Shown here: piece after piece, positions 212 to 63,224 of the stretch
Position numbering within the stretch: the stretch's first letter is position 1
Layout of the letters: each line of letters begins with the position of its first letter
DNA from: Shigella phage SSP1
Sequence record: KY963424
Direction: 5' to 3' (one strand)
Length of the DNA stretch: 64,000 nucleotides
The notes under the pieces: generated by a model
The model's input: only the letters and a program-made list of their open reading frames with translations
Database searches by the model: none
What the model was told of the DNA's origin: nothing
Position numbers and translations under genes: made by a program

Positions 212-219
212 AAATTCAT

Positions 220-248
220 TTGCTTTCTCTCTTATTTATTGTTATAAT
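220..248 (+). promoter_or_regulatory. T5 early-type sigma70 promoter (TTGCTT-N17-TATAAT)
   Basis: -35 TTGCTT 220-225, -10 TATAAT 243-248, 17-bp spacer, conserved leader ATAAATTAATGAGAGGG before ATG 279. Confidence 0.75.
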
Positions 249-278
249 ATTTATATAAATTAATGAGAGGGAAACCAA

Positions 279-4881: not shown

Positions 4882-4896
4882 ATAATAAAATTTTAG

Positions 4897-4925
4897 TTGC
4901 TTAGATGCCCAAACTTTTGTATAAT
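4897..4925 (+). promoter_or_regulatory. T5 early-type promoter (TTGCTT-N17-TATAAT)
   Basis: -35 4897-4902, -10 4920-4925, 17-bp spacer. Confidence 0.7.
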
Positions 4926-4956
4926 ATGTTTATAGATTGAGGCAAGAGGATTAAAT

Positions 4957-10732: not shown

Positions 10733-10765
10733 AAGCCTGATCTTAGCTGATCAGGCTTTTATTTT
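10733..10765 (+). terminator. intrinsic terminator
   Basis: 10-bp stem AAGCCTGATC/GATCAGGCTT then TTTTATTTT. Confidence 0.8.
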
Positions 10766-10767
10766 AC

Positions 10768-10796
10768 TTGCTTTTTGCTAAAAATTTTGGTATAAT
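10768..10796 (+). promoter_or_regulatory. T5 early-type promoter (TTGCTT-N17-TATAAT)
   Basis: -35 10768-10773, -10 10791-10796, leader ATAAATTGATAGGAG. Confidence 0.75.
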
Positions 10797-10824
10797 ACTT
10801 ATATAAATTGATAGGAGTATTACG

Positions 10825-12827: not shown

Positions 12828-12935
12828 GTATATAGCTGAGGCTATTATTAAACGAATCATACAAGCGATAGCGATACTTATAATCATTTGTATTGCTATT
12901 GGTACGGGATTAGGCATTTTAATTAAAAGTTTTAT

Positions 12936-12964
12936 TTGCTAAAATGCTTAAGTTTCTGTATAAT
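12936..12964 (+). promoter_or_regulatory. T5 early-type promoter (TTGCTA-N17-TATAAT)
   Basis: -35 12936-12941, -10 12959-12964, leader ATAAATTGATGAGAAGG. Confidence 0.75.
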
Positions 12965-12994
12965 TACTTTATAAATTGATGAGAAGGAATCAAA

Positions 12995-13426: not shown

Positions 13427-13443
13427 GTACTTAAAAAATTCAG

Positions 13444-13472
13444 TTGCTTTAAGCCTTAAAATTCTGTATAAT
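13444..13472 (+). promoter_or_regulatory. T5 early-type promoter (TTGCTT-N17-TATAAT)
   Basis: -35 13444-13449, -10 13467-13472, leader CATAAATTAATGAGAGAGG. Confidence 0.75.
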
Positions 13473-13504
13473 AAGTTCATAAATTAATGAGAGAGGAAAT
13501 TCTA

Positions 13505-28548: not shown

Positions 28549-28575
28549 ATTGCCCGCTGATAAATAGCGGGCAAT
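28549..28575 (+). other. GC-cored hairpin without U-tract
   Basis: 10-bp stem ATTGCCCGCT/AGCGGGCAAT, loop GATAAAT. Confidence 0.6.
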
Positions 28576-28615
28576 GCTGGATAAACTAAATCCCTTTAAT
28601 GGAGAACGTAACAAA

Positions 28616-29350
28616 ATGAATCAAGTTAAAATGAATATTACCCGTAATTTCCCGCATATTTCCCGCGTCATGATTTGGGATCTGGACGGAACAATCATTA
28701 ATTCATTCCATCGTGTCGCGCCTTGCTTTGATAGCGAGGGTAATTTAGATTTAAATAAGTATAAGAATGAAGCGTGTAAGCATCATTTAATAATGCAAGA
28801 TACCTTATTGCCTTTGGTTGAATATATGCGCCAGTGCATGAATGACGCAAATACTTTAAACATTATTTGTACCGCTCGACTAATGAGCAAATCGGACTAT
28901 TATTATTTGCGCAAACAAGGCTTACGCGGTCGTGGGGATAGTAATATCCGCGTGTTTTCCCGCGATACGCTGCATAAATATTTTGAAGCTGATAAAGTTA
29001 GCGAAATATACCACAGTAAGGACGCAGTTTATAAATCGTATTATTTTGAGCTATTCAAACAACTATATCCGAACGCTGATTTTACAATGATTGATGATCA
29101 TAAAGGTGTATTATCAGCGGCAGCGTCATACGGATTTAAAACGCTGGACGCGCAAGCCGTTAATGATATTCTATCAATCGGCGTGGCATTGATAGGCGGA
29201 ACCTTTATTGATGAATCTCTCGATGATGATAATGATTATCAGTTCCTAGCGGACCGCTTAAAACTATGTTGGGAAAGCATGACCGAAGAAGAACGCGCAG
29301 AATATAGTTGCAGCCCGCAACAATATATTGAGAAATTAAAAGTTGCGTAA
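28616..29350 (+). CDS. dmp: 5-prime-deoxyribonucleotidase (HAD family)
   Basis: 244 aa from ATG 28616 as recalled for T5 Dmp; HAD motif I WDLDGTI. Confidence 0.75.
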   Translation: MNQVKMNITRNFPHISRVMIWDLDGTIINSFHRVAPCFDSEGNLDLNKYKNEACKHHLIMQDTLLPLVEYMRQCMNDANTLNIICTARLMSKSDYYYLRKQGLRGRGDSNIRVFSRDTLHKYFEADKVSEIYHSKDAVYKSYYFELFKQLYPNADFTMIDDHKGVLSAAASYGFKTLDAQAVNDILSIGVALIGGTFIDESLDDDNDYQFLADRLKLCWESMTEEERAEYSCSPQQYIEKLKVA

Positions 29351-29526
29351 TAATTAAAATTGAAATAGTTTCATCCTGTAATTAAAAATGGTTGCAGGGT
29401 GAAACAGTTAGCAGGGTAATAGTCACGGGGGTGGCGGTTAGCAGACTAAGTATTTTCGCCCTAGCCACTGGACTCACCCACGCGTACGTAATCCAAAGAA
29501 TTTGGCAAAAGTCATTTTAGCGCTAA

Positions 29527-30024
29527 TTAATTATGATTTGCAAACTCACCGTGATAGTGCTCCCTGGCTTTTCTAAGTTCTTTTTCAGCCTGCTCAAGAG
29601 TTTTAAAAGTTCCCACGGTAATCCTATTGCCATTTACACGTAATTTTGCTTCGAACTTTTCCTCACCACGTTTATATACTCCCTTAACTCCGGTAGACTC
29701 ATTCTTCCATCCCGAAGAGTTTTTGCCATTCTCTGCATTTGTTGCTTTACGCAGGTTATTCCATCTATTGTTGAAAGGATCTTGATCTTTATGATCAATG
29801 AGAAACTCACTCGGATCTTCTCCTGTCATGTATAGATATGCTACCCGATGGGCTTTATATAACCCATTACTGCCCATTGATAGGGATATTCCTGAGCTGT
29901 TTCTACTGCCTGCTGGCTTACCTTTACGACTTCCCGAGTTCCAAGTAAAGATACCAGTTCCAGGATCATAATCAAATTTCTTCTGGTATTCTGCTAAGGG
30001 CAGTAGAGGTTTATGATTTGCCAT
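29527..30024 (-). CDS. HNH homing endonuclease with AP2-like domain
   Basis: AHRVAYLYMTGEDPSEFLIDHKDQDPFNNRWNNLRKATNAEN; 165 aa, paralog of 5634-6131. Confidence 0.75.
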   Translation of the reverse strand: MANHKPLLPLAEYQKKFDYDPGTGIFTWNSGSRKGKPAGSRNSSGISLSMGSNGLYKAHRVAYLYMTGEDPSEFLIDHKDQDPFNNRWNNLRKATNAENGKNSSGWKNESTGVKGVYKRGEEKFEAKLRVNGNRITVGTFKTLEQAEKELRKAREHYHGEFANHN

Positions 30025-30229
30025 CTATCTTGGATCTCCTCCGAGAACTTCTTGAACCGTCATTCCACTCCCGCTCAAACTCCGCACGTTTCTCATCAAA
30101 CTTCCGCTCCCTTTCCGCAATCTCCCGCGATACTTCCGCAATATATTTACGATGCTTGTTGATTGCCGCAGTCGTCCCGAAAACTCCCGCGAGTATCCCG
30201 ATAATAAAAGCAATTACAATACTAAACAT
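30011..30229 (-). CDS. small single-pass membrane protein with charged C-terminus
   Basis: TM segment FSIVIAFIIGILAGVFGTTAAI then Arg/Glu-rich tail; coupled to upstream ORF. Confidence 0.5.
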   Translation of the reverse strand: MFSIVIAFIIGILAGVFGTTAAINKHRKYIAEVSREIAERERKFDEKRAEFEREWNDGSRSSRRRSKIDGKS

Positions 30230-30416
30230 CTAATTCCCTCTCAATTTGCAGAATACGGGTGCTATCACAACGTTGCAGTAGTACTAGCTTTTCTAGAATA
30301 ACTTGTTGTTGTTTCACCTGAGCTTCTAGAGTTTTTAGGCGGAGATACACGATACGAGAGACAATGAGGATTACCCAGACTAATATTACTATTAGTGTAA
30401 CTGCCACCTCCATCAT
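30222..30416 (-). CDS. small single-pass membrane protein
   Basis: TM segment VAVTLIVILVWVILIVSRIVYL; ATGA overlap with upstream ORF. Confidence 0.5.
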   Translation of the reverse strand: MMEVAVTLIVILVWVILIVSRIVYLRLKTLEAQVKQQQVILEKLVLLQRCDSTRILQIERELDV

Positions 30417-30520
30417 TTACGTTTCTCCAATAATAAGGTCTCAATTCTAGCTAAGTGATTATCTAAAATACACTGTCCAATAATCACAATCCCTAGTAGT
30501 GTAATAATTACCCATTCCAT
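30413..30520 (-). CDS. small membrane peptide (35 aa)
   Basis: TAATG and ATGA coupling to both neighbours; MEWVIITLLGIVIIGQCIL; below track cutoff. Confidence 0.4.
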   Translation of the reverse strand: MEWVIITLLGIVIIGQCILDNHLARIETLLLEKRK

Positions 30521-30711
30521 TAAATCCACCCCGCCATAGCTGCTAACCAAAAGCCTACGAAAATAAAGAATAAGATAGTTCCGAACCCAAAACTATTTAT
30601 CCAGCTATCATACACCTCTCCACGTCTGCTCTTTCTTTTATTTGACATATCTTTCATGCTCCTGTAAATGTTGTATTTGGAATATTTTATATTTTGTGCA
30701 TAACCAACCAT
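30520..30711 (-). CDS. small C-terminally anchored membrane protein
   Basis: Basic N-terminus, C-terminal TM segment FGFGTILFFIFVGFWLAAMAGWI. Confidence 0.5.
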   Translation of the reverse strand: MVGYAQNIKYSKYNIYRSMKDMSNKRKSRRGEVYDSWINSFGFGTILFFIFVGFWLAAMAGWI

Positions 30712-30823
30712 GCTTGTGACTTCCTAGAGGACTTCTACTTTTCTTACATAGTGGTTTCTGCCAATATACCATCCAAGAAATAAAAAATTTAGTTTACTTG
30801 GATGTCTTTTTGCTTTATACTAA

Positions 30824-31090
30824 TTACAGGTAGTTAGATTGCTCTAGTTTAAATTTACAATCACCATATTTAAGGTCAAACTGACTGAGATCCCACCACC
30901 CAAACTTAGTGCGGAGCTGTACTACTGGAAAGCGATCTCCCTTAATACGAACTTTTTGAACCTTGAGGCCGTAATGTTCTTCTCCAGCACCACCAAAAGA
31001 TTTTACAAATCCAGTACAAAATGGTTTGGGAGCAGGTGCACAACCAGATAACATAACTGTGGTAACTAGTGCAATCACAAACTTTTTCAT
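30824..31090 (-). CDS. llp: Llp-like lytic-conversion lipoprotein (receptor-blocking)
   Basis: Signal peptide with lipobox LSGC; divergent from and adjacent to the receptor-binding protein gene; own strong early promoter. Confidence 0.65.
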   Translation of the reverse strand: MKKFVIALVTTVMLSGCAPAPKPFCTGFVKSFGGAGEEHYGLKVQKVRIKGDRFPVVQLRTKFGWWDLSQFDLKYGDCKFKLEQSNYL

Positions 31091-31121
31091 ATTTATCTCT
31101 CCATTTCTAATTTATGAATCT

Positions 31122-31150
31122 ATTATAGCAAAATAGAGGGATGAAAGCAA
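31122..31150 (-). promoter_or_regulatory. T5 early-type promoter for llp (TTGCTT-N17-TATAAT)
   Basis: Minus-strand -35 at 31145-31150, -10 at 31122-31127, then AGATTCATAAATTAGAAATGGAGAG leader. Confidence 0.75.
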
Positions 31151-31175
31151 ATACATTTTTATAATAGGAGATTAT

Positions 31176-32933
31176 ATGGGTTTTTTCGCTGGAAAATATA
31201 GCGATGGTAAGACCGTACTATCTTTAAATACTGAATCTGGTGGTGACATTAATCGTCACTATAGTCCAAATGCTAATAGTATTTTTCATAGTGATATGCC
31301 ATTTGTCCTAGTTGATGGTACTTACGAGGCTGGGTTAGGAAATGCTGGAAATGGGTTTTTTGTATGCCAGATGCCTTCTGACATAATAAATATTAAATCC
31401 AACGACCCAGGTAGAGTTATACTAACTGCTATTGAGATTAATGGTACTCATAGGGCTTTTCTTAACGGTACTCAGAGTAAGGTGGGTCAAACTATAGTTG
31501 CCACTCAAGCAGATCCTTTTAGATCTTTTGCTAGTGTTTCCCAGACTAGTGGATTTGCATTTGGTAATAGCCTGGCATCTGGTACATATAACTATAATCC
31601 ATCTATAGGACATGAAGAATCTATTTCTAGGAATGGTACAGGGGGTACTACCTTACATAGTACGTATCATGGTATAGTTAGGCCAGGTGCAGGAGCTCCA
31701 GTAGGTATTACTGTTGCAGAAGCTTTTGCACAGTTAGGATTCCCTACTAATAGTAGTACAGTACCTATAGATGGTAATAACCAATATTACTGGGACCCAG
31801 GATGGATGTCTCCTTTAGGATCAGCACACAGAGGGCACGATTGGTTTTATGTTTGTAACTCTAACATACGTGGGTATGGTGGGGTAAGACAAGGTCTTCC
31901 TGGTAATGTAAATACTATGTATCATGATGGAGGTAACAGATTTGTTTGTAGGGGTTCTACAACTAATTTAGCTAACCAATCTGGTAACGCTACAATATTA
32001 CAGGATTGGTATAACATAACCCCTACTAAAGTTATTTGGTACGTTTTGAATTTAAGATACTCAAATGGTGGTATGAGTATCTCTGGTAATCCTTTTACTG
32101 GTTCAGATATTCTTATATCTCCTTCTAATTTCATAATTAAAGGGGTTAGTCTTCCCAATACTGGATACAAGTTTATTAACCAAAACGCTTTCGGTAACTT
32201 AGGTTATAGACCAGATATGGAATACATTGGAAATAACGCAGCATACACTGGGGCCTTTGGGGATACCACTGCAAGATGTGAACTTGTAGGTTCTAGTAAC
32301 GGGAGTTTATGGTCTCCTGTAGACTATGGAGGGGCTAAGTCTCAAATTAGTATTTACAAATTCGGAGCTGGTAAGCAATGGTACGTAAACTCTAATGATA
32401 ATACTATCGGTAATGAACACGGGGTTGTTTGGGGGCCTTCAGCAGTTCCACTACGACTTTTTAGCGGAAATGTTGGTAGTTCTTACATGGGGGATGATAT
32501 TACTCCCAGCTATCCAGGAACTGGAGATAGATACGTTGGTTTATCAACTATTGGGCTAGGTATACCGGGTGGCAATGCTACAGTAATTCTTACCACTGAA
32601 GTTATATCAGGTAATCTTAACTGTGCAGGTGTTCCTGCTAATACATGGAATAACGGTGTGTTTCAAGTGCAAGGAAGAAGAGCATATAGTTATAGTAATG
32701 GAGACGCGATATTCCACCAGATTTTAACACTACCAGTAGGGTATTTAGTACCTTTTCATACTACATCTGCTTTTAGATACACACCTAACAATGCCCTAAG
32801 TAGAAATAGTTTTATATACACTGCTAAAAATCTGGGGAACGGAAATGTAGAGTTAGGGGTAGTTATGCACGTAAGTTTAGGTAGTGCAGTTTTCCTACCT
32901 AGATTAAGAGTAACAGTTCAACGCCTTACCTAA
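31176..32933 (+). CDS. receptor-binding tail protein (pb5-like)
   Basis: 585 aa; N-terminus [17 protein letters not shown] resembles recalled pb5 family start; Gly/Asn-rich; position next to llp as in T5. Confidence 0.65.
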
Positions 32934-61385: not shown

Positions 61386-63224
61386 TTATTCTAAGTAGGA
61401 AAATCCTTCTGCATCTTTTTTGACAGTAATCTTATGGGCCAATGGATGCGTATGCCCATGAGAAACAATGATAGAATTTAGACTTTCTTCCTCATTTAAT
61501 AATTCAACAAGGGTGTCAAGTCCTTTAGTATCAATAAAGCTAATTACTTCATCAAGGAATAGAAGATTAATATTAACTTTACTAATAGATGTTAGTAGCA
61601 TTCGAATAGCTAACAGAGTTGCTAGGTTGATTCTACTTTGCTGACCAGTAGAGCAGTTCTCCATACTGGTACGGTTTCCATCATTGAAGATTACTACTTG
61701 TAATTTCGTTTCATCAAGCTCAAATCCAAGTGCGAACTTACCGCCAGTCATAATAGAAAGGTATTTATTGATAAGCTCTTCAAATACTTTCACACTATGC
61801 TCTAGTTTATACCCTACCAGATTTTTCAATGCGGCGATCAGAATATCGAGATCAGCAACAGCTTCTGATACTCCATCTAGTTTGGAAGTAATCTCAGACA
61901 TTTCTGCCTCAGCTTTCTCAATCTGTTCTAGTTTCGCTCTATATTTTGCATTGGCTAATTCAACATTTGCATTATGCTCTTTGGCAATTGCAACCTTAGA
62001 ACGTCCGTCAGCGATTTCCTGTTCTAGTTGTCGGATTTGCACCTGTAGGTTTTGCACATTGAGTTCTTCAAAAGAGGCATCACTCATTGAATTTTTGAAC
62101 TCGTCTCTAGCTGCTACTGCTTTATCCAAAGCATCCTTTGCTCTGATATACGTAGTGTACTCAAGTTGTTCTTTCTTCAGCTGTTCTAGCTTGGTTTCAA
62201 GAGATTGCTTCTCTTTGAACAGAGGATCATATTCTGTTCTAGCCATATCCATTGCTTTTTGAGCAGCAGTTATATCCAGATGAGTACCACAAGTAGGACA
62301 TTCAGTATTTGAAGCCTCTTGCTTGAACTTCTGATAACGTTTCTTGACTTCGCCCGCACGTGAGGTCACAATTGTTAGGTCACGCGTAACACTCGAGATC
62401 TCTTCATTTTGGTCGGTGGGCGCAGGTAAATTTTTGAAAGGCTCGAAAGATTGTTCGGCAACTTGTACAGCTTTGTCCAAATTACGCAATTTAGTAATAT
62501 TAGCCTCTTGAGACTTGGCTAATGCCGCCTTAATTTTCGATTCAGTAAGTTCTTGTGCTAAGGGTTCTTCGTCAAACTCAGGCACTTCGACTGGTTCCTG
62601 CAAAGTTCCCAGATTATTCTTTCCATTAAGGATTTTCGTAATTACAGCCATTTGGCCCTGCAAATTATTCAAGGTATTTGCTATTTCTTTACGGTCGGCC
62701 TTAATAGTTTCTGACATTTCTTTGTACTGTTCTTGATTGAACAAGTTAACAAGAAAAGCCTTACGTGTTGCATCTGTTGCTTTTAGAAAATCTAGGTTGG
62801 AACCCACTGATTGATAAATTAGTTTGGTGAATGTTTGGAAGTCACCACCCATAATCTCTTCAATCATCTTGTATGTTTGAGTTGCCGTGTGGCCACTAAT
62901 ATCTTCTCCATTCTTAATAAGAGTTACTTTAGCAGTTGATTTAACTACTTTATGCAATTCATACTCATCTTCATCTTTTGAGAAGTAAGCGTGCATATCA
63001 TACTCTTTTTTCGGAGAAGACCAGGAGAACAGAGCATCCTTCTTAATACCACGTGAGTTCTTATTATAAAATAGTTCTTCAATAACAGTAGCAATAGTGG
63101 ATTTTCCTAACCCATTGCCACCAATTAGTTGGGTAACTGGATTCTTATCGAAATGAATTACGATGTCCTTACCGTAAGACATAACGTTACTAAATTTTAG
63201 TGTCTTAATTGTAATCTTTGACAT
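61386..63224 (-). CDS. D13: SbcC/Rad50-like recombination ATPase
   Basis: Walker A GGNGLGKST, long coiled-coil middle, CxxC zinc hook (CPTCG), C-terminal signature/Walker B LLFLDEV; start set at internal Met. Confidence 0.85.
   Translation of the reverse strand: MSKITIKTLKFSNVMSYGKDIVIHFDKNPVTQLIGGNGLGKSTIATVIEELFYNKNSRGIKKDALFSWSSPKKEYDMHAYFSKDEDEYELHKVVKSTAKVTLIKNGEDISGHTATQTYKMIEEIMGGDFQTFTKLIYQSVGSNLDFLKATDATRKAFLVNLFNQEQYKEMSETIKADRKEIANTLNNLQGQMAVITKILNGKNNLGTLQEPVEVPEFDEEPLAQELTESKIKAALAKSQEANITKLRNLDKAVQVAEQSFEPFKNLPAPTDQNEEISSVTRDLTIVTSRAGEVKKRYQKFKQEASNTECPTCGTHLDITAAQKAMDMARTEYDPLFKEKQSLETKLEQLKKEQLEYTTYIRAKDALDKAVAARDEFKNSMSDASFEELNVQNLQVQIRQLEQEIADGRSKVAIAKEHNANVELANAKYRAKLEQIEKAEAEMSEITSKLDGVSEAVADLDILIAALKNLVGYKLEHSVKVFEELINKYLSIMTGGKFALGFELDETKLQVVIFNDGNRTSMENCSTGQQSRINLATLLAIRMLLTSISKVNINLLFLDEVISFIDTKGLDTLVELLNEEESLNSIIVSHGHTHPLAHKITVKKDAEGFSYLE

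What the first reader, a model, noticed from the sequence alone, without database searches (positions are those of the whole stretch)
30011..31150. Llp-like lipoprotein heads an operon of four translationally coupled small membrane proteins
The lipoprotein gene has a textbook T5 early promoter on the minus strand. Downstream on the same strand are four single-pass membrane proteins of 63, 35, 64 and 72 aa with TAATG or ATGA overlaps, then an HNH gene. This could be a multi-component superinfection-exclusion or envelope-modification module beyond the single receptor-blocking lipoprotein.
Basis: partly seen in the sequence, partly recalled or inferred. Interest (0 to 1): 0.55.

Follow-up and report, generated by a model that had tools for sequence, protein, structure and literature searches.

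The report
T5 llp operon small membrane genes
These are the already-annotated but never-studied genes T5.159 to T5.162 of T5-like phages: four tiny inner-membrane proteins transcribed behind the receptor-blocking lipoprotein gene llp, real and conserved, but evolutionarily separate from llp and dispensable for growth in the laboratory.

Summary
The window comes from a T5-like phage (Tequintavirus). On the minus strand lie:
- a promoter nearly identical to T5 P-N25 (31153-31109);
- a BF23/BtuB-type llp (30824-31090);
- a 175-nt spacer;
- four translationally coupled genes, each with one hydrophobic helix;
- an HNH gene (29527-30024);
- the predicted right terminal repeat, starting about 53 nt after the HNH stop.

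One correction: the first small gene encodes 42 aa (30520-30648), not 63.

The four genes are orthologues of T5.159-T5.162, which RefSeq annotates as "contains single transmembrane domain". They occur in about 445 T5-like phage records, which is essentially all Markadamsvirinae. All four are under purifying selection (dN/dS 0.14-0.41). An exhaustive profile search with the largest protein found no relatives outside this group.

Homology with T5 resumes about 30 nt before the first gene's start codon. The cassette is therefore backbone, not part of the swappable RBP-Llp receptor module. Its soluble parts are predicted to be cytoplasmic. Llp alone suffices for exclusion. Published T5 knock-downs of all four genes show no fitness effect.

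Their function is unknown. My best guess, at low confidence, is a receptor-independent accessory inner-membrane complex, possibly a second exclusion layer. The feature is known; the open question is modest.

The parts
31109..31153 (-). llp promoter of the T5 P-N25 class: -35 TTGCTT at 31150-31145, 17-nt spacer, extended -10 TG at 31130-31129, -10 TATAAT at 31127-31122.
   Evidence: It matches the P-N25 core at 35 of 45 positions, the best match in the window. P-N25 itself was verified in T5 at 63048-63117, annotated 'promoter'. The same TTGCTT-17-TATAAT promoter lies upstream of llp in T5, EscoHU1, Bas33 and DT57C, and T5 RefSeq annotates a promoter there.
30824..31090 (-). llp, a BF23-type (BtuB-blocking) lytic-conversion lipoprotein of 88 aa. 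The lipobox is LSG|C, with Cys17 and Ala at position +2.
   Evidence: Searches give the ORF. It matches phrog_1119 at 2e-25 and LPAM_1. It is 87/88 identical to DT57C Llp, which was shown to exclude BF23 and DT57C but not T5 (PMC4728585).
30770..30804 (-). Hairpin CATCCAAG-N19-CTTGGATG, starting 20 nt after the llp stop codon. It has no T-run. Its role is unknown; it could be a weak terminator or an RNA processing site.
   Evidence: Seen in the fold of the spacer, z = -3.3. Conserved in BF23-type spacers, with G-U-compatible changes. The terminator scan found nothing here.
30649..30823 (-). llp to gene-1 spacer (175 nt). It belongs to the swappable RBP-llp module, except for about the last 30 nt.
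   Evidence: It is unrelated to the T5 spacer apart from the last ~30 nt (...tataGGAGcatgaaagatATG). The alignment of 16 loci is. No strong promoter is present.
30520..30648 (-). Small gene 1, orthologue of T5.159: 42 aa, with a basic N-terminus (MSNKRKSRRGE) and a C-terminal membrane anchor. Predicted topology is N-terminus in the cytoplasm, tail-anchored.
   Evidence: Matches phrog_8596 at 3e-32 over the full length. Present in 446 phage records. dN/dS is 0.14. The start codon was established.
30413..30520 (-). Small gene 2, orthologue of T5.160: 35 aa, with an N-terminal membrane anchor, the invariant motif GQCILDNHLARIE, and a short amphipathic tail.
   Evidence: Matches phrog_6369 at 3e-25. 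dN/dS is 0.16. It overlaps gene 1 through TAATG. A 51-aa paralogue is present in 37 records.
30222..30416 (-). Small gene 3, orthologue of T5.161: 64 aa, with an N-terminal membrane anchor (the variable part) and a conserved helical or coiled-coil tail of about 40 aa.
   Evidence: Matches phrog_5851 at 6e-31. dN/dS is 0.66 in the membrane segment and 0.16 in the tail. The last 8 codons are almost invariant even at synonymous sites, because they overlap the RBS and start of gene 4.
30011..30229 (-). Small gene 4, orthologue of T5.162: 72 aa here and 81 aa in T5. It has an N-terminal membrane anchor, a highly charged helix (REIAERERKFDEKRAEFEREW) and a variable basic tail.
   Evidence: Matches phrog_6447 at 1e-42. 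Present in 442 phage records. The exhaustive profile search returned only T5-like representatives. AlphaFold2 predicts a single helix over residues 2-70, mean pLDDT 70. dN/dS is 0.38.
29527..30024 (-). HNH homing-endonuclease gene (165 aa). It is a mobile insertion that overlaps the 3' end of gene 4 by 14 nt and supplies that gene's ...KIDGKS tail.
   Evidence: Matches HNH_3 at 1e-13 and phrog_99 at 6e-56. Absent in T5 and many relatives; other HNH types occupy the same site in some. The tail variant goes with this HNH type.
29470..29478 (.). Predicted start of the terminal repeat (right DTR boundary), by homology with base 1 of the T5 genome.
   Evidence: The alignment with the T5 left end and with the start of the T5 right repeat places the boundary at about 29474. 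In T5 the right repeat starts 42 bp after T5.162. In EscoHU1 it starts 54 bp after gene 4.
31176..32933 (+). Context: the receptor-binding tail protein gene (585 aa, BF23/Hrs type), divergent from llp.
   Evidence: Searches give the ORF and its annotation in relatives. It is 96-99% identical in some relatives, 67-74% in others, and 30% identical to T5 pb5.

Best explanation
The region is the last transcription unit of the unique part of a T5-like genome, lying just before the right terminal repeat.

Shown:
- A strong sigma-70 promoter of the T5 P-N25 class drives llp, a BF23-type lipoprotein that blocks the BtuB receptor.
- After a 175-nt spacer with no strong promoter or canonical terminator come orthologues of T5.159-T5.162. 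Their start and stop codons overlap.
- All four genes are under purifying selection and are present in essentially every Markadamsvirinae genome, whatever the receptor or Llp type.
- In T5, knocking down any of the four has no effect on lytic growth.

Inferred:
- All four proteins are single-pass inner-membrane proteins with their soluble parts in the cytoplasm. Gene 1 is tail-anchored with its N-terminus inside. Genes 2-4 have the N-terminus outside and the C-terminus inside, carrying helical or coiled-coil tails.
- Translational coupling delivers them in fixed proportions, so they probably form one small hetero-oligomeric inner-membrane complex.
- They are co-transcribed with llp early in infection, but they are a backbone cassette that works independently of Llp and of the receptor.

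Best guess for function (about 0.25): an accessory, receptor-independent protection of the infected cell at the inner membrane. For example, the complex could hinder genome entry by other phages, including T5-like phages that use a different receptor and so escape Llp. This would resemble T4 Imm or HK97 gp15.

The confidence of 0.55 applies to the overall picture: a real, co-transcribed, Llp-independent accessory inner-membrane cassette. The anatomy alone I put at about 0.9, and the specific exclusion function at about 0.25.
For: Anatomy and coupling.

Promoter:
- Identity with T5 P-N25.
- Only one strong promoter per cluster in five phages.
- No terminator found by the scan.

Orthology and annotation:
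- T5 RefSeq annotates T5.159-162 as 'contains single transmembrane domain'.
- Full-length PHROG matches for all four proteins.

Distribution:
- Gene 1 is in 446 phage records and gene 4 in 442. dmp at 80% identity or more is in 440 records.
- No homologues of gene 4 outside T5-like phages among 1.84 billion representative proteins.

Selection: dN/dS is 0.14-0.41, and the cytoplasmic tails are as constrained as the membrane segments.

Independence from Llp:
- The breakpoint lies about 30 nt before the gene-1 start.
- BF23-type Llp is in 398 records against 446 with gene 1.

Topology and structure:
- Hydropathy and flanking charges.
- Gene 4 is predicted as a single long helix.

Expression in Bas33 at 20 min (TPM, two replicates; gene identities checked): llp 219/127, the gene-2 paralogue 162/137, gene 3 462/408, HNH 525/444. 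All fall to about 0 under daunorubicin, which confines expression to the first-step-transfer region, while the convergent dmp gene stays high (PMC13250531 dataset). The cluster is therefore not pre-early, and its reads are not read-through from dmp.

Dispensability:
- T5.159-162 are all 'Not Fit' in the T5 CRISPRi-ART screen (PMC11879866, supplementary file 16).
- Natural loss or truncation alleles exist.

Llp alone excludes phage: PMC4728585.

Similar architecture at the same site in distant relatives: five tiny single-helix ORFs in Providencia phage PSTCR5, and two membrane-anchor-plus-coiled-coil ORFs in a Klebsiella phage.
Against: - No experiment addresses function. There is no homology to any exclusion, immunity, holin or defence family in Pfam, NCBIfam, PADLOC or PDB.
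- Topology and complex formation are predictions only.
- The RNA-seq gives only 1-2 reads for genes 1 and 2. This looks like a read-length artefact that affects every gene shorter than about 130 bp in that dataset.
- Gene 4 has unexplained low counts (TPM 22/13) between highly expressed neighbours. An internal promoter or RNA processing therefore cannot be excluded.
- I could not establish whether the library was strand-specific, and only one time point exists, so the 'early' class rests on promoter similarity.
- The hairpin after llp might attenuate transcription.
- Phage smaug lacks genes 2 and 3, and several isolates carry truncated genes 1, 3 or 4. Selection is therefore not strict everywhere.
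- The absence of a knock-down phenotype fits any accessory role, not exclusion in particular.
Confidence: 0.55

Rival explanations
1. One reading: Llp and the four small proteins form one multi-component receptor-blocking or envelope-modification system, and the small proteins assist, anchor or extend the action of Llp.
For: The genes share a strand and a single strong promoter. llp and the cassette are adjacent in about 440 genomes. Transcript levels are similar in Bas33.
Against: The Llp type changes (FhuA type against BtuB type, with no detectable similarity between them) while the cassette stays 75-98% identical, and the breakpoint lies about 30 nt upstream of the gene-1 start. Llp alone gives exclusion of 100-fold or more (PMC4728585). 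The four proteins are predicted to have 0-3 periplasmic residues, whereas Llp acts in the periplasm on the receptor. The Klebsiella relative has membrane-anchor-plus-coiled-coil genes at this site and no lipoprotein.
Confidence: 0.08
2. Host take-over at the membrane. The bitopic proteins mimic or bind host single-pass proteins of the divisome or envelope-biogenesis machinery (for example FtsL/FtsB, ZapG/YhcB or LapA). They would block cell division or re-tune envelope synthesis, much as SPO1 gp56 does in Bacillus.
For: Gene 4 gives weak, sub-threshold matches to LapA_dom (9e-5; 22.7 bits against a cut-off of 28), ZapG-like (0.05) and FtsL_COG5462 (0.006-0.011). The genes have an early-type promoter, conserved cytoplasmic helices and are dispensable in rich medium.
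Against: All these matches are below the curated cut-offs and reflect the generic pattern of an N-terminal membrane helix followed by a charged helix. The exhaustive profile search found no bacterial relatives. T5 already destroys host DNA, so blocking division would bring little obvious benefit.
Confidence: 0.17
3. Lysis control. The proteins are holin or antiholin-like modulators of lysis timing, or a spanin-like bridge formed together with Llp.
For: Small single-pass membrane proteins are typical of lysis cassettes, and an outer-membrane lipoprotein next to bitopic coiled-coil proteins superficially resembles an o-spanin/i-spanin pair.
Against: T5-like phages carry holin, endolysin and Rz-like spanins together elsewhere in the genome (OSYSP orf146-151; PMC11664485). 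The predicted tails are cytoplasmic and only 16-49 aa long, too short and on the wrong side to span the periplasm. Llp has a demonstrated and different function. The promoter is of the early type. Knock-down gives no fitness effect.
Confidence: 0.08
4. Counter-defence. The cassette neutralises a membrane-associated host or plasmid abortive-infection or exclusion system, so it matters only in hosts that carry that system.
For: The genes are conserved yet dispensable on laboratory K-12. The family is an orphan confined to one phage group. BASEL data indicate that Markadamsvirinae are frequent targets of Abi systems (PMC8594841).
Against: There is no similarity to known anti-defence proteins and no host-specific pattern in the data I could reach. 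The membrane segment of gene 3 is only relaxed (dN/dS 0.66), not positively selected.
Confidence: 0.12
5. The small ORFs are not genes, that is, they are chance ORFs in AT-rich DNA. Alternatively, they belong to the terminal repeat and are therefore pre-early genes unrelated to llp.
For: The ORFs are very short. One database record (100268_sal2) duplicates them at both genome ends.
Against: Purifying selection with an excess of third-position changes. A Shine-Dalgarno sequence before each start. Full-length PHROG families. Conservation across two genera. In T5, EscoHU1 and DT57C the repeat starts 42-166 bp after gene 4, and the window aligns to T5 base 1 at about 29474. Bas33 transcripts vanish when only first-step-transfer DNA is expressed.
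Confidence: 0.02

Closest known systems
T5 genes T5.159, T5.160, T5.161 and T5.162 (PHROGs 8596, 6369, 5851 and 6447)
   Same: They are orthologues, 75-98% identical in protein sequence. They have the same order and the same overlaps, and the same position between llp and the right terminal repeat. RefSeq already notes a single transmembrane domain for each.
   Different: Gene 4 here is 72 aa with a ...KIDGKS tail, because an HNH gene is inserted at its 3' end; T5.162 is 81 aa. The upstream llp is of the BF23/BtuB type rather than the T5/FhuA type, and the llp to gene-1 spacer is unrelated apart from its last ~30 nt.
Llp of BF23 and DT57C (BtuB-blocking lytic-conversion lipoprotein), and T5 Llp and Cor by analogy
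   Same: The window's Llp is 87/88 identical to DT57C Llp. It has the lipobox and is divergent from the RBP gene.
   Different: Only llp belongs to this family. The four downstream genes do not and are not needed for its activity.
Inner-membrane superinfection-exclusion proteins: T4 Imm and Sp, HK97 gp15, P22 SieA (compared from general knowledge)
   Same: They are small phage-encoded inner-membrane proteins made early or constitutively. They are dispensable for single infections and act independently of the receptor.
   Different: There is no sequence similarity. Those are single proteins, some with periplasmic domains, whereas here four coupled genes are predicted to have cytoplasmic tails. 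No exclusion phenotype has been shown.
Bitopic membrane-anchor-plus-coiled-coil proteins of the host: FtsL/FtsB, ZapG (YhcB), LapA; and SPO1 gp56
   Same: Genes 3 and 4 share the architecture of an N-terminal membrane helix followed by a long helix. HMM matches are weak and sub-threshold.
   Different: All matches fall below the family cut-offs, and the proteins here are much shorter. For FtsL and FtsB the coiled coil is periplasmic, whereas here it is predicted to be cytoplasmic.
Syntenic small-ORF clusters in other Demerecviridae: Providencia phage PSTCR5 and Klebsiella phage vB_Kpn2-P1
   Same: They occupy the same place, between the RBP-divergent gene and dmp or the repeat. They are tightly packed or overlapping tiny ORFs, each with one hydrophobic helix. 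The Klebsiella phage has two membrane-anchor-plus-coiled-coil proteins.
   Different: No homology is detectable (hhalign probability 1-3%). The number and order of genes differ. Vibrio relatives lack such a cluster.

Membership tests
T5.159-T5.162 orthologous cassette | Full-length sequence match of each protein to the corresponding family. | tested here: met
   phrog_8596 (positions 1-42 of 42, 3e-32), phrog_6369 (1-35 of 35, 3e-25), phrog_5851 (1-64 of 64, 6e-31) and phrog_6447 (1-71 of 81, 1e-42). Identity to the T5 proteins is 97.6, 91, 75 and 89%.
T5.159-T5.162 orthologous cassette | Position between llp and the right terminal repeat, on the same strand as llp, with overlapping start and stop codons. 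| tested here: met
   The same layout is seen in more than 25 loci.
T5.159-T5.162 orthologous cassette | One transmembrane segment per protein. | tested here: met
   The best 17-residue hydropathy is 2.2-3.2 in each protein, and gene 4 is modelled as a continuous helix. This is a prediction; membrane insertion was not measured.
BF23-type Llp (receptor-blocking lipoprotein) | Lipoprotein signal peptide with lipobox; gene divergent from the RBP gene; near-identity to an Llp with demonstrated function. | tested here: met
   The lipobox is LSGC and LPAM_1 is matched. The RBP gene at 31176 is divergent. The protein is 87/88 identical to DT57C Llp, whose function was shown in PMC4728585.
BF23-type Llp (receptor-blocking lipoprotein) | Blocks BtuB and excludes BtuB-dependent phages. 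| not testable with these tools
   Inferred from the near-identical DT57C and BF23 proteins.
Single operon headed by llp | One promoter upstream of llp and none between llp and the small genes. | tested here: met
   The only TTGCTT-17-TATAAT (P-N25-like) site in the cluster lies upstream of llp in the window, T5, EscoHU1, Bas33 and DT57C. All other sites are weak matches at chance level.
Single operon headed by llp | No terminator between llp and the small genes, and a continuous transcript. | tested here: inconclusive
   There is no canonical terminator, but a conserved hairpin without a T-run sits 20 nt after llp. Bas33 RNA-seq shows downstream genes at or above the llp level, but genes 1 and 2 are uninformative and gene 4 is low. 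No coverage track or 5'-end data are available.
T5 early promoter class | Sequence similarity to a characterised T5 early promoter (P-N25). | tested here: met
   The match is 35 of 45 positions, with identical -35 and -10/+1 blocks. P-N25 was located in T5 at 63048-63117. Early timing itself was not tested here.
Inner-membrane superinfection-exclusion proteins (Imm, Sp, gp15, Sie) | Sequence or profile similarity to a known member. | tested here: not met
   There are no matches in Pfam, NCBIfam, PADLOC or PDB and none in the exhaustive profile search with gene 4.
Inner-membrane superinfection-exclusion proteins (Imm, Sp, gp15, Sie) | An exclusion phenotype when the gene is expressed. | not testable with these tools
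   No published test was found.
Two-component spanin (o-spanin lipoprotein plus i-spanin) | An i-spanin with its N-terminus in the cytoplasm and a long periplasmic coiled-coil domain; a location in the lysis cassette. | tested here: not met
   The tails are predicted to be cytoplasmic and are at most 49 aa long. T5-like phages have Rz-like spanins next to the holin and endolysin genes elsewhere (PMC11664485).
Pre-early (first-step-transfer) genes of the terminal repeat | Location inside the terminal repeat, and expression when only first-step-transfer DNA is expressed. | tested here: not met
   The repeat starts after gene 4 or the HNH gene. The Bas33 cluster is silent under daunorubicin while pre-early genes stay on. 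The one exception is the 100268_sal2 record.
HNH homing endonuclease | An HNH domain, and sporadic presence at an otherwise conserved site. | tested here: met
   HNH_3 at 1e-13 and phrog_99. The gene is absent in T5 and in many other loci, and other HNH types sit at the same site in some.

The most novel reading that the evidence does not exclude
The four coupled proteins form an inner-membrane complex that is a second, receptor-independent layer of superinfection exclusion or immunity, shared by all T5-like phages. It would act on genome entry or second-step transfer of phages that escape Llp by using another receptor. Non-homologous clusters of tiny membrane proteins at the same site in Providencia and Klebsiella Demerecviridae would be functional analogues.
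Probability: 0.2. Interest if true: 0.6.

Novelty: already known. Interest (0 to 1): 0.3.

Why it matters
T5 is a classic model phage, and T5-like phages are common in therapy and biocontrol cocktails. Even so, this universally conserved four-gene cassette next to llp has no assigned function and, as far as I could find, has never been studied. Showing that it is backbone rather than part of the receptor module sharpens the experiment: test the cassette on its own, against T5-like phages that use other receptors. If it proved to be an inner-membrane exclusion or host-manipulation complex, it would matter for cocktail design, because co-infecting T5-like phages might exclude each other whatever their receptor. 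It would also add a family of very small phage membrane proteins with a known role. If it has no such role, the finding is simply a correct reading of already annotated hypothetical genes.

Tried and rejected
1. Terminal-repeat idea. I suspected that the small genes sit inside the terminal repeat, which would make them pre-early genes and the 'operon' an artefact of a collapsed assembly. I rejected this: the T5, EscoHU1 and DT57C repeats start after gene 4, the window aligns with T5 base 1 at about 29474, and the Bas33 cluster is silent when only first-step-transfer genes are expressed.
2. The 63-aa version of gene 1. Rejected.
3. Remote homology. All searches were negative or below threshold: Pfam, NCBIfam, PADLOC, the PDB profile search, a 5.8-billion-protein search and an exhaustive profile search of 1.84 billion representatives with gene 4.
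4. Homology between genes 3 and 4 and the Klebsiella membrane-anchor-plus-coiled-coil proteins. hhalign gave probabilities of 3% and 1%.
5. Spanin reading. Rejected.
6. A structured RNA in the spacer. Rfam returned nothing.
7. Literature searches by gene name (T5.159-162, T5p155-158). No paper discusses these genes. The only data are table rows in the CRISPRi-ART and Bas33 RNA-seq supplements.
8. The phiR2-01 proteogenomics paper. It gave no information on these genes.
9. Vibrio and Aeromonas relatives. They do not have a comparable cluster at this site.
10. AlphaFold on gene 4. It gives a single helix only, so I did not run a fold search.


Full report
**What is there**

The window comes from a T5-like phage. 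The 2.1 kb around the finding matches Tequintavirus genomes at 88-93% DNA identity. Reading the minus strand from 31153 downwards, the features are:
- A sigma-70 promoter: TTGCTT (31150-31145), a 17-nt spacer, TATAAT (31127-31122), with a TG extended -10.
- llp at 30824-31090, encoding 88 aa with the lipobox LSG|C.
- A 175-nt spacer.
- Four small genes at 30520-30648 (42 aa), 30413-30520 (35 aa), 30222-30416 (64 aa) and 30011-30229 (72 aa).
- An HNH gene at 29527-30024.

The junctions between genes are TAATG (1 nt), ATGA (4 nt), ATGTTTAG (8 nt) and a 14-nt overlap with the HNH gene. Every start codon has a Shine-Dalgarno-like sequence upstream.

The receptor-binding protein gene (31176-32933, plus strand) is divergent from llp. 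The dmp gene, the first gene of the terminal repeat, converges on the HNH gene.

**Checking the observation**

The promoter claim holds. I recalled the sequence of the T5 P-N25 promoter and found it at 100% identity in T5, at 63048-63117, where the record annotates a promoter. The llp promoter is the best match to the P-N25 core anywhere in the 64-kb window. It matches 35 of 45 positions, and the blocks TATTTGCTTTCA and TATAATAGATTCATAAATT are identical.

The '63-aa' protein is an over-extension. In an alignment of 16 loci with the same type of spacer, the upstream ATG is ACG in nine, and single-base indels break that reading frame. The ATG preceded by AGGAG is invariant, and T5.159 is annotated as 42 aa.

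Each of the four proteins has one strongly hydrophobic stretch, with mean hydropathy of 2.2-3.2 over 17 residues.

The HNH gene is genuine: it matches HNH_3 at 1e-13.

**Are the small ORFs genes?**

Yes, on several grounds.
- They are the orthologues of T5.159, T5.160, T5.161 and T5.162, which T5 RefSeq annotates as 'contains single transmembrane domain'.
- Each matches its own PHROG family over the full length.
- They were present in all 17 IMG/VR loci and in almost all the GenBank loci I fetched, in both Tequintavirus and Epseptimavirus. The exception is phage smaug, described below.
- tblastn finds gene 1 in 446 phage records and gene 4 in 442. That is the same number as records with a dmp protein at least 80% identical (440). 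So essentially every member of the Markadamsvirinae carries them.
- Pooled dN/dS is 0.14, 0.16, 0.41 and 0.38, compared with 0.20 for llp, and variable sites are in excess at third codon positions.
- Within Tequintavirus, the cytoplasmic tails are as constrained as the membrane segments. Only the membrane segment of gene 3 is relaxed (0.66).
- The last eight codons of gene 3, which carry the ribosome-binding site and start of gene 4, are almost invariant even at synonymous sites. That is what translational coupling predicts.

**Where the cluster sits in the genome**

I first suspected the small genes might belong to the terminal repeat and so be pre-early genes. They do not.
- In T5 the right repeat begins 42 bp after T5.162.
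- In EscoHU1 it begins 54 bp after gene 4, and in DT57C about 166 bp after it.
- The window aligns with base 1 of the T5 genome at about 29474, which is 53 nt past the HNH stop codon.

The cluster is therefore the last transcription unit of the unique DNA. One record, 100268_sal2, repeats the genes at both ends, with the repeat starting inside llp. I regard that boundary as doubtful.

**Relation to llp**

The window's Llp is 87/88 identical to DT57C Llp. That protein, expressed alone, reduced plating of BF23 and DT57C more than 100-fold and had no effect on T5 (PMC4728585). It is therefore a BtuB-type blocker, and it needs no helper.

T5 carries an unrelated Llp and an RBP only 30% identical, yet its four small proteins are 75-98% identical to those of the window. 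The two spacers are unrelated apart from their last ~30 nt: similarity resumes just before the Shine-Dalgarno sequence of gene 1...tataGGAGcatgaaagatATG.

BF23-type Llp occurs in 398 records, against 446 with gene 1. The cassette is thus backbone. The swappable module is RBP plus llp plus most of the spacer.

**Is it one operon?**

In the window, T5, EscoHU1, Bas33 and DT57C, the only strong T5-type promoter in the cluster is the one before llp. Other sigma-70-like sites are weak and at chance level. No canonical terminator is present. A conserved hairpin without a T-run (30804-30770) lies 20 nt after llp.

A published RNA-seq data set exists for Bas33 (HildyBeyeler), taken at 20 min after infection. 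I checked its gene layout. The TPM values, two replicates each, are:
- llp: 219/127
- the extra gene-2 paralogue: 162/137
- gene 3: 462/408
- gene 4: 22/13
- HNH: 525/444

All of these drop to 0-2 reads under daunorubicin, which confines expression to first-step-transfer genes, while the convergent dmp gene stays high (PMC13250531). So the cluster is transcribed, it is not pre-early, and its reads are not read-through from dmp.

Genes 1 and 2 (129 and 108 bp) have 1-2 reads. So does every other gene shorter than about 130 bp in that table. Reads were trimmed to at most 150 nt, so I treat this as a counting artefact. The low value for gene 4 remains unexplained.

Co-transcription from the llp promoter is therefore well supported but not proven.

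**What the proteins look like**

- Gene 1 has a basic N-terminus and a hydrophobic C-terminus that ends the protein. This suggests a tail-anchored protein with its N-terminus in the cytoplasm.
- Genes 2-4 start with the hydrophobic helix. They have no positive charge before it and three to four Lys/Arg in the 15 residues after it. This suggests the N-terminus is outside and the C-terminus inside.
- Their tails are a 16-aa amphipathic stretch (gene 2), a roughly 40-aa heptad-like helix (gene 3) and a very charged helix followed by a basic tail (gene 4).
- AlphaFold2 models gene 4 as one helix over residues 2-70, with mean pLDDT 70.
- Almost nothing is predicted to face the periplasm, where Llp works.

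**Searches for relatives**

- Pfam, NCBIfam, PADLOC and a PDB profile search gave nothing above threshold. Gene 4 has weak matches to LapA_dom, ZapG-like and FtsL models, which reflect its generic architecture of one membrane helix followed by a long helix.
- A search of 5.8 billion proteins with gene 4 returned only T5-like phage proteins at 74% identity or more.
- An exhaustive profile search of 1.84 billion cluster representatives returned five, all from the same family.
- The families are orphans of this phage group.

**Natural variation**

- Thirty-seven records, including Bas33 and SP01, carry a 51-aa paralogue of gene 2 between genes 1 and 2.
- Epseptimaviruses have an additional 104-aa acidic ORF between llp and gene 1, and T5 retains a remnant of it.
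- Phage smaug lacks genes 2 and 3.
- Single isolates have truncated or internally deleted genes 1, 3 or 4.
- Gene 4 has at least three alternative C-terminal tails. The ...KIDGKS tail occurs only together with the window's type of HNH gene.

**Distant relatives**

- Providencia phage PSTCR5 has five tightly packed ORFs of 29-46 aa, each with one hydrophobic helix, at the same site.
- A Klebsiella relative has two membrane-anchor-plus-coiled-coil ORFs there and no lipoprotein. Neither set is detectably homologous to the T5 cassette.
- Vibrio relatives lack such a cluster.

**Published functional data**

No paper names these genes. In the genome-wide CRISPRi-ART screen of T5, T5.159, T5.160, T5.161 and T5.162 are each scored 'Not Fit'. 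That means knock-down has no effect on lytic growth in the laboratory host (PMC11879866, supplementary file 16).

**Interpretation**

Shown:
- The region is a known, universally conserved cassette of four coupled genes for very small hydrophobic proteins.
- It lies downstream of llp behind a P-N25-class promoter.
- It is evolutionarily separable from the receptor module.
- It is transcribed after second-step transfer.
- It is dispensable for growth.

Inferred:
- The proteins sit in the inner membrane with cytoplasmic tails.
- They assemble into one complex.
- They share an early transcript with llp.

Function is open. I give about 0.25 to a receptor-independent protective or exclusion role at the inner membrane. 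The weights for the rival readings are:
- about 0.17 to manipulation of host membrane machinery;
- about 0.12 to counter-defence;
- about 0.08 to lysis control;

The spanin idea is rejected. T5-like phages have Rz-like spanins elsewhere (PMC11664485), and the tails here are short and predicted to be on the cytoplasmic side.

**Verdict**

The suggestion of a multi-component system built around Llp is not supported by the comparative evidence. A separate accessory role remains an untested and moderately interesting possibility.

Noticed in passing
window 29527-30024 (-) and 30011-30030: The HNH gene starts inside the 3' end of small gene 4, with a 14-nt overlap. The ...KIDGKS/KINGKS tail of gene 4 occurs only in loci with this HNH type. 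Loci without an HNH gene have the T5 tail REFRP...SMR, and a third tail, RMSESGDKPVDRRSS, also exists. The mobile element seems to have rewritten the end of its neighbour. Internal deletions or truncation of gene 4 (L001, L005, L014) occur only in loci that carry this HNH type.
   Followed up: partly
L007 3742-3897; L028 2143-2298 (Bas33): A 51-aa paralogue of small gene 2 (MEWVII...RIETLLEERK) is inserted between genes 1 and 2 in 37 phage records. The window lacks it.
   Followed up: partly
L026 2239-2553; L004 3241-3297 (T5): Epseptimaviruses carry a 104-aa acidic ORF with one hydrophobic stretch between llp and gene 1, overlapping the start of gene 1. The T5 spacer keeps an 18-codon remnant (MEGVMGIFTLITAIARVF). 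Gene callers often annotate the 104-aa ORF and miss gene 1.
   Followed up: no
L024 2501-2877 (Salmonella phage smaug): Genes 2 and 3 are cleanly absent, and gene 1 is followed directly by gene 4. This is a natural deletion that could serve as a ready-made mutant.
   Followed up: no
L022 1-1100 and L023 5700-7200 (Salmonella phage 100268_sal2): In this record the terminal repeat starts inside llp, so the small genes appear at both genome ends. In T5, EscoHU1 and DT57C the repeat starts after gene 4. The cause is either a mis-set boundary or a real shift of about 1 kb in the repeat.
   Followed up: partly
window 30770-30804 (-): A conserved hairpin, CATCCAAG-N19-CTTGGATG, lies 20 nt after the llp stop codon. 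It has no T-run, and variants keep pairing through G-U. Its role is unknown.
   Followed up: partly
Bas33 genes bas33_0187 to bas33_0192 (PMC13250531 dataset): Gene 4 has a TPM of 22/13 although its neighbours on the same strand have 408-525. Gene 3 is higher than llp. This could reflect an internal promoter, RNA processing or a counting artefact.
   Followed up: no
window 28574-29350 (+): The 258-aa dmp ORF is over-extended. Its first ATG is not conserved in related loci. The conserved start gives 244 aa (from about 28616), as annotated in T5.
   Followed up: partly
window 217-261, 4894-4938, 10765-10809, 12933-12977, 13441-13485 (+): Five further P-N25-like promoters (30-33 of 45 core positions) lie on the plus strand, upstream of the A1/dmp side of the window.
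   Followed up: no
L030 5822-6370 (-) (Providencia phage PSTCR5); L029 5341-6029 (-) (Klebsiella phage vB_Kpn2-P1): Non-homologous clusters of tiny single-helix ORFs (Providencia), or two membrane-anchor-plus-coiled-coil ORFs without a lipoprotein (Klebsiella), occupy the same site between the RBP-divergent gene and dmp.
   Followed up: partly
GenBank/RefSeq records of relatives: Annotation errors have propagated. Gene 1 is called 'receptor blocking protein' (phiAPCEc03, SP01, HMD-P4), and genes in this cluster are labelled 'tail assembly protein' or 'tail fiber protein' in several records. In the phiAPCEc03 RefSeq record llp itself is not annotated.
   Followed up: no
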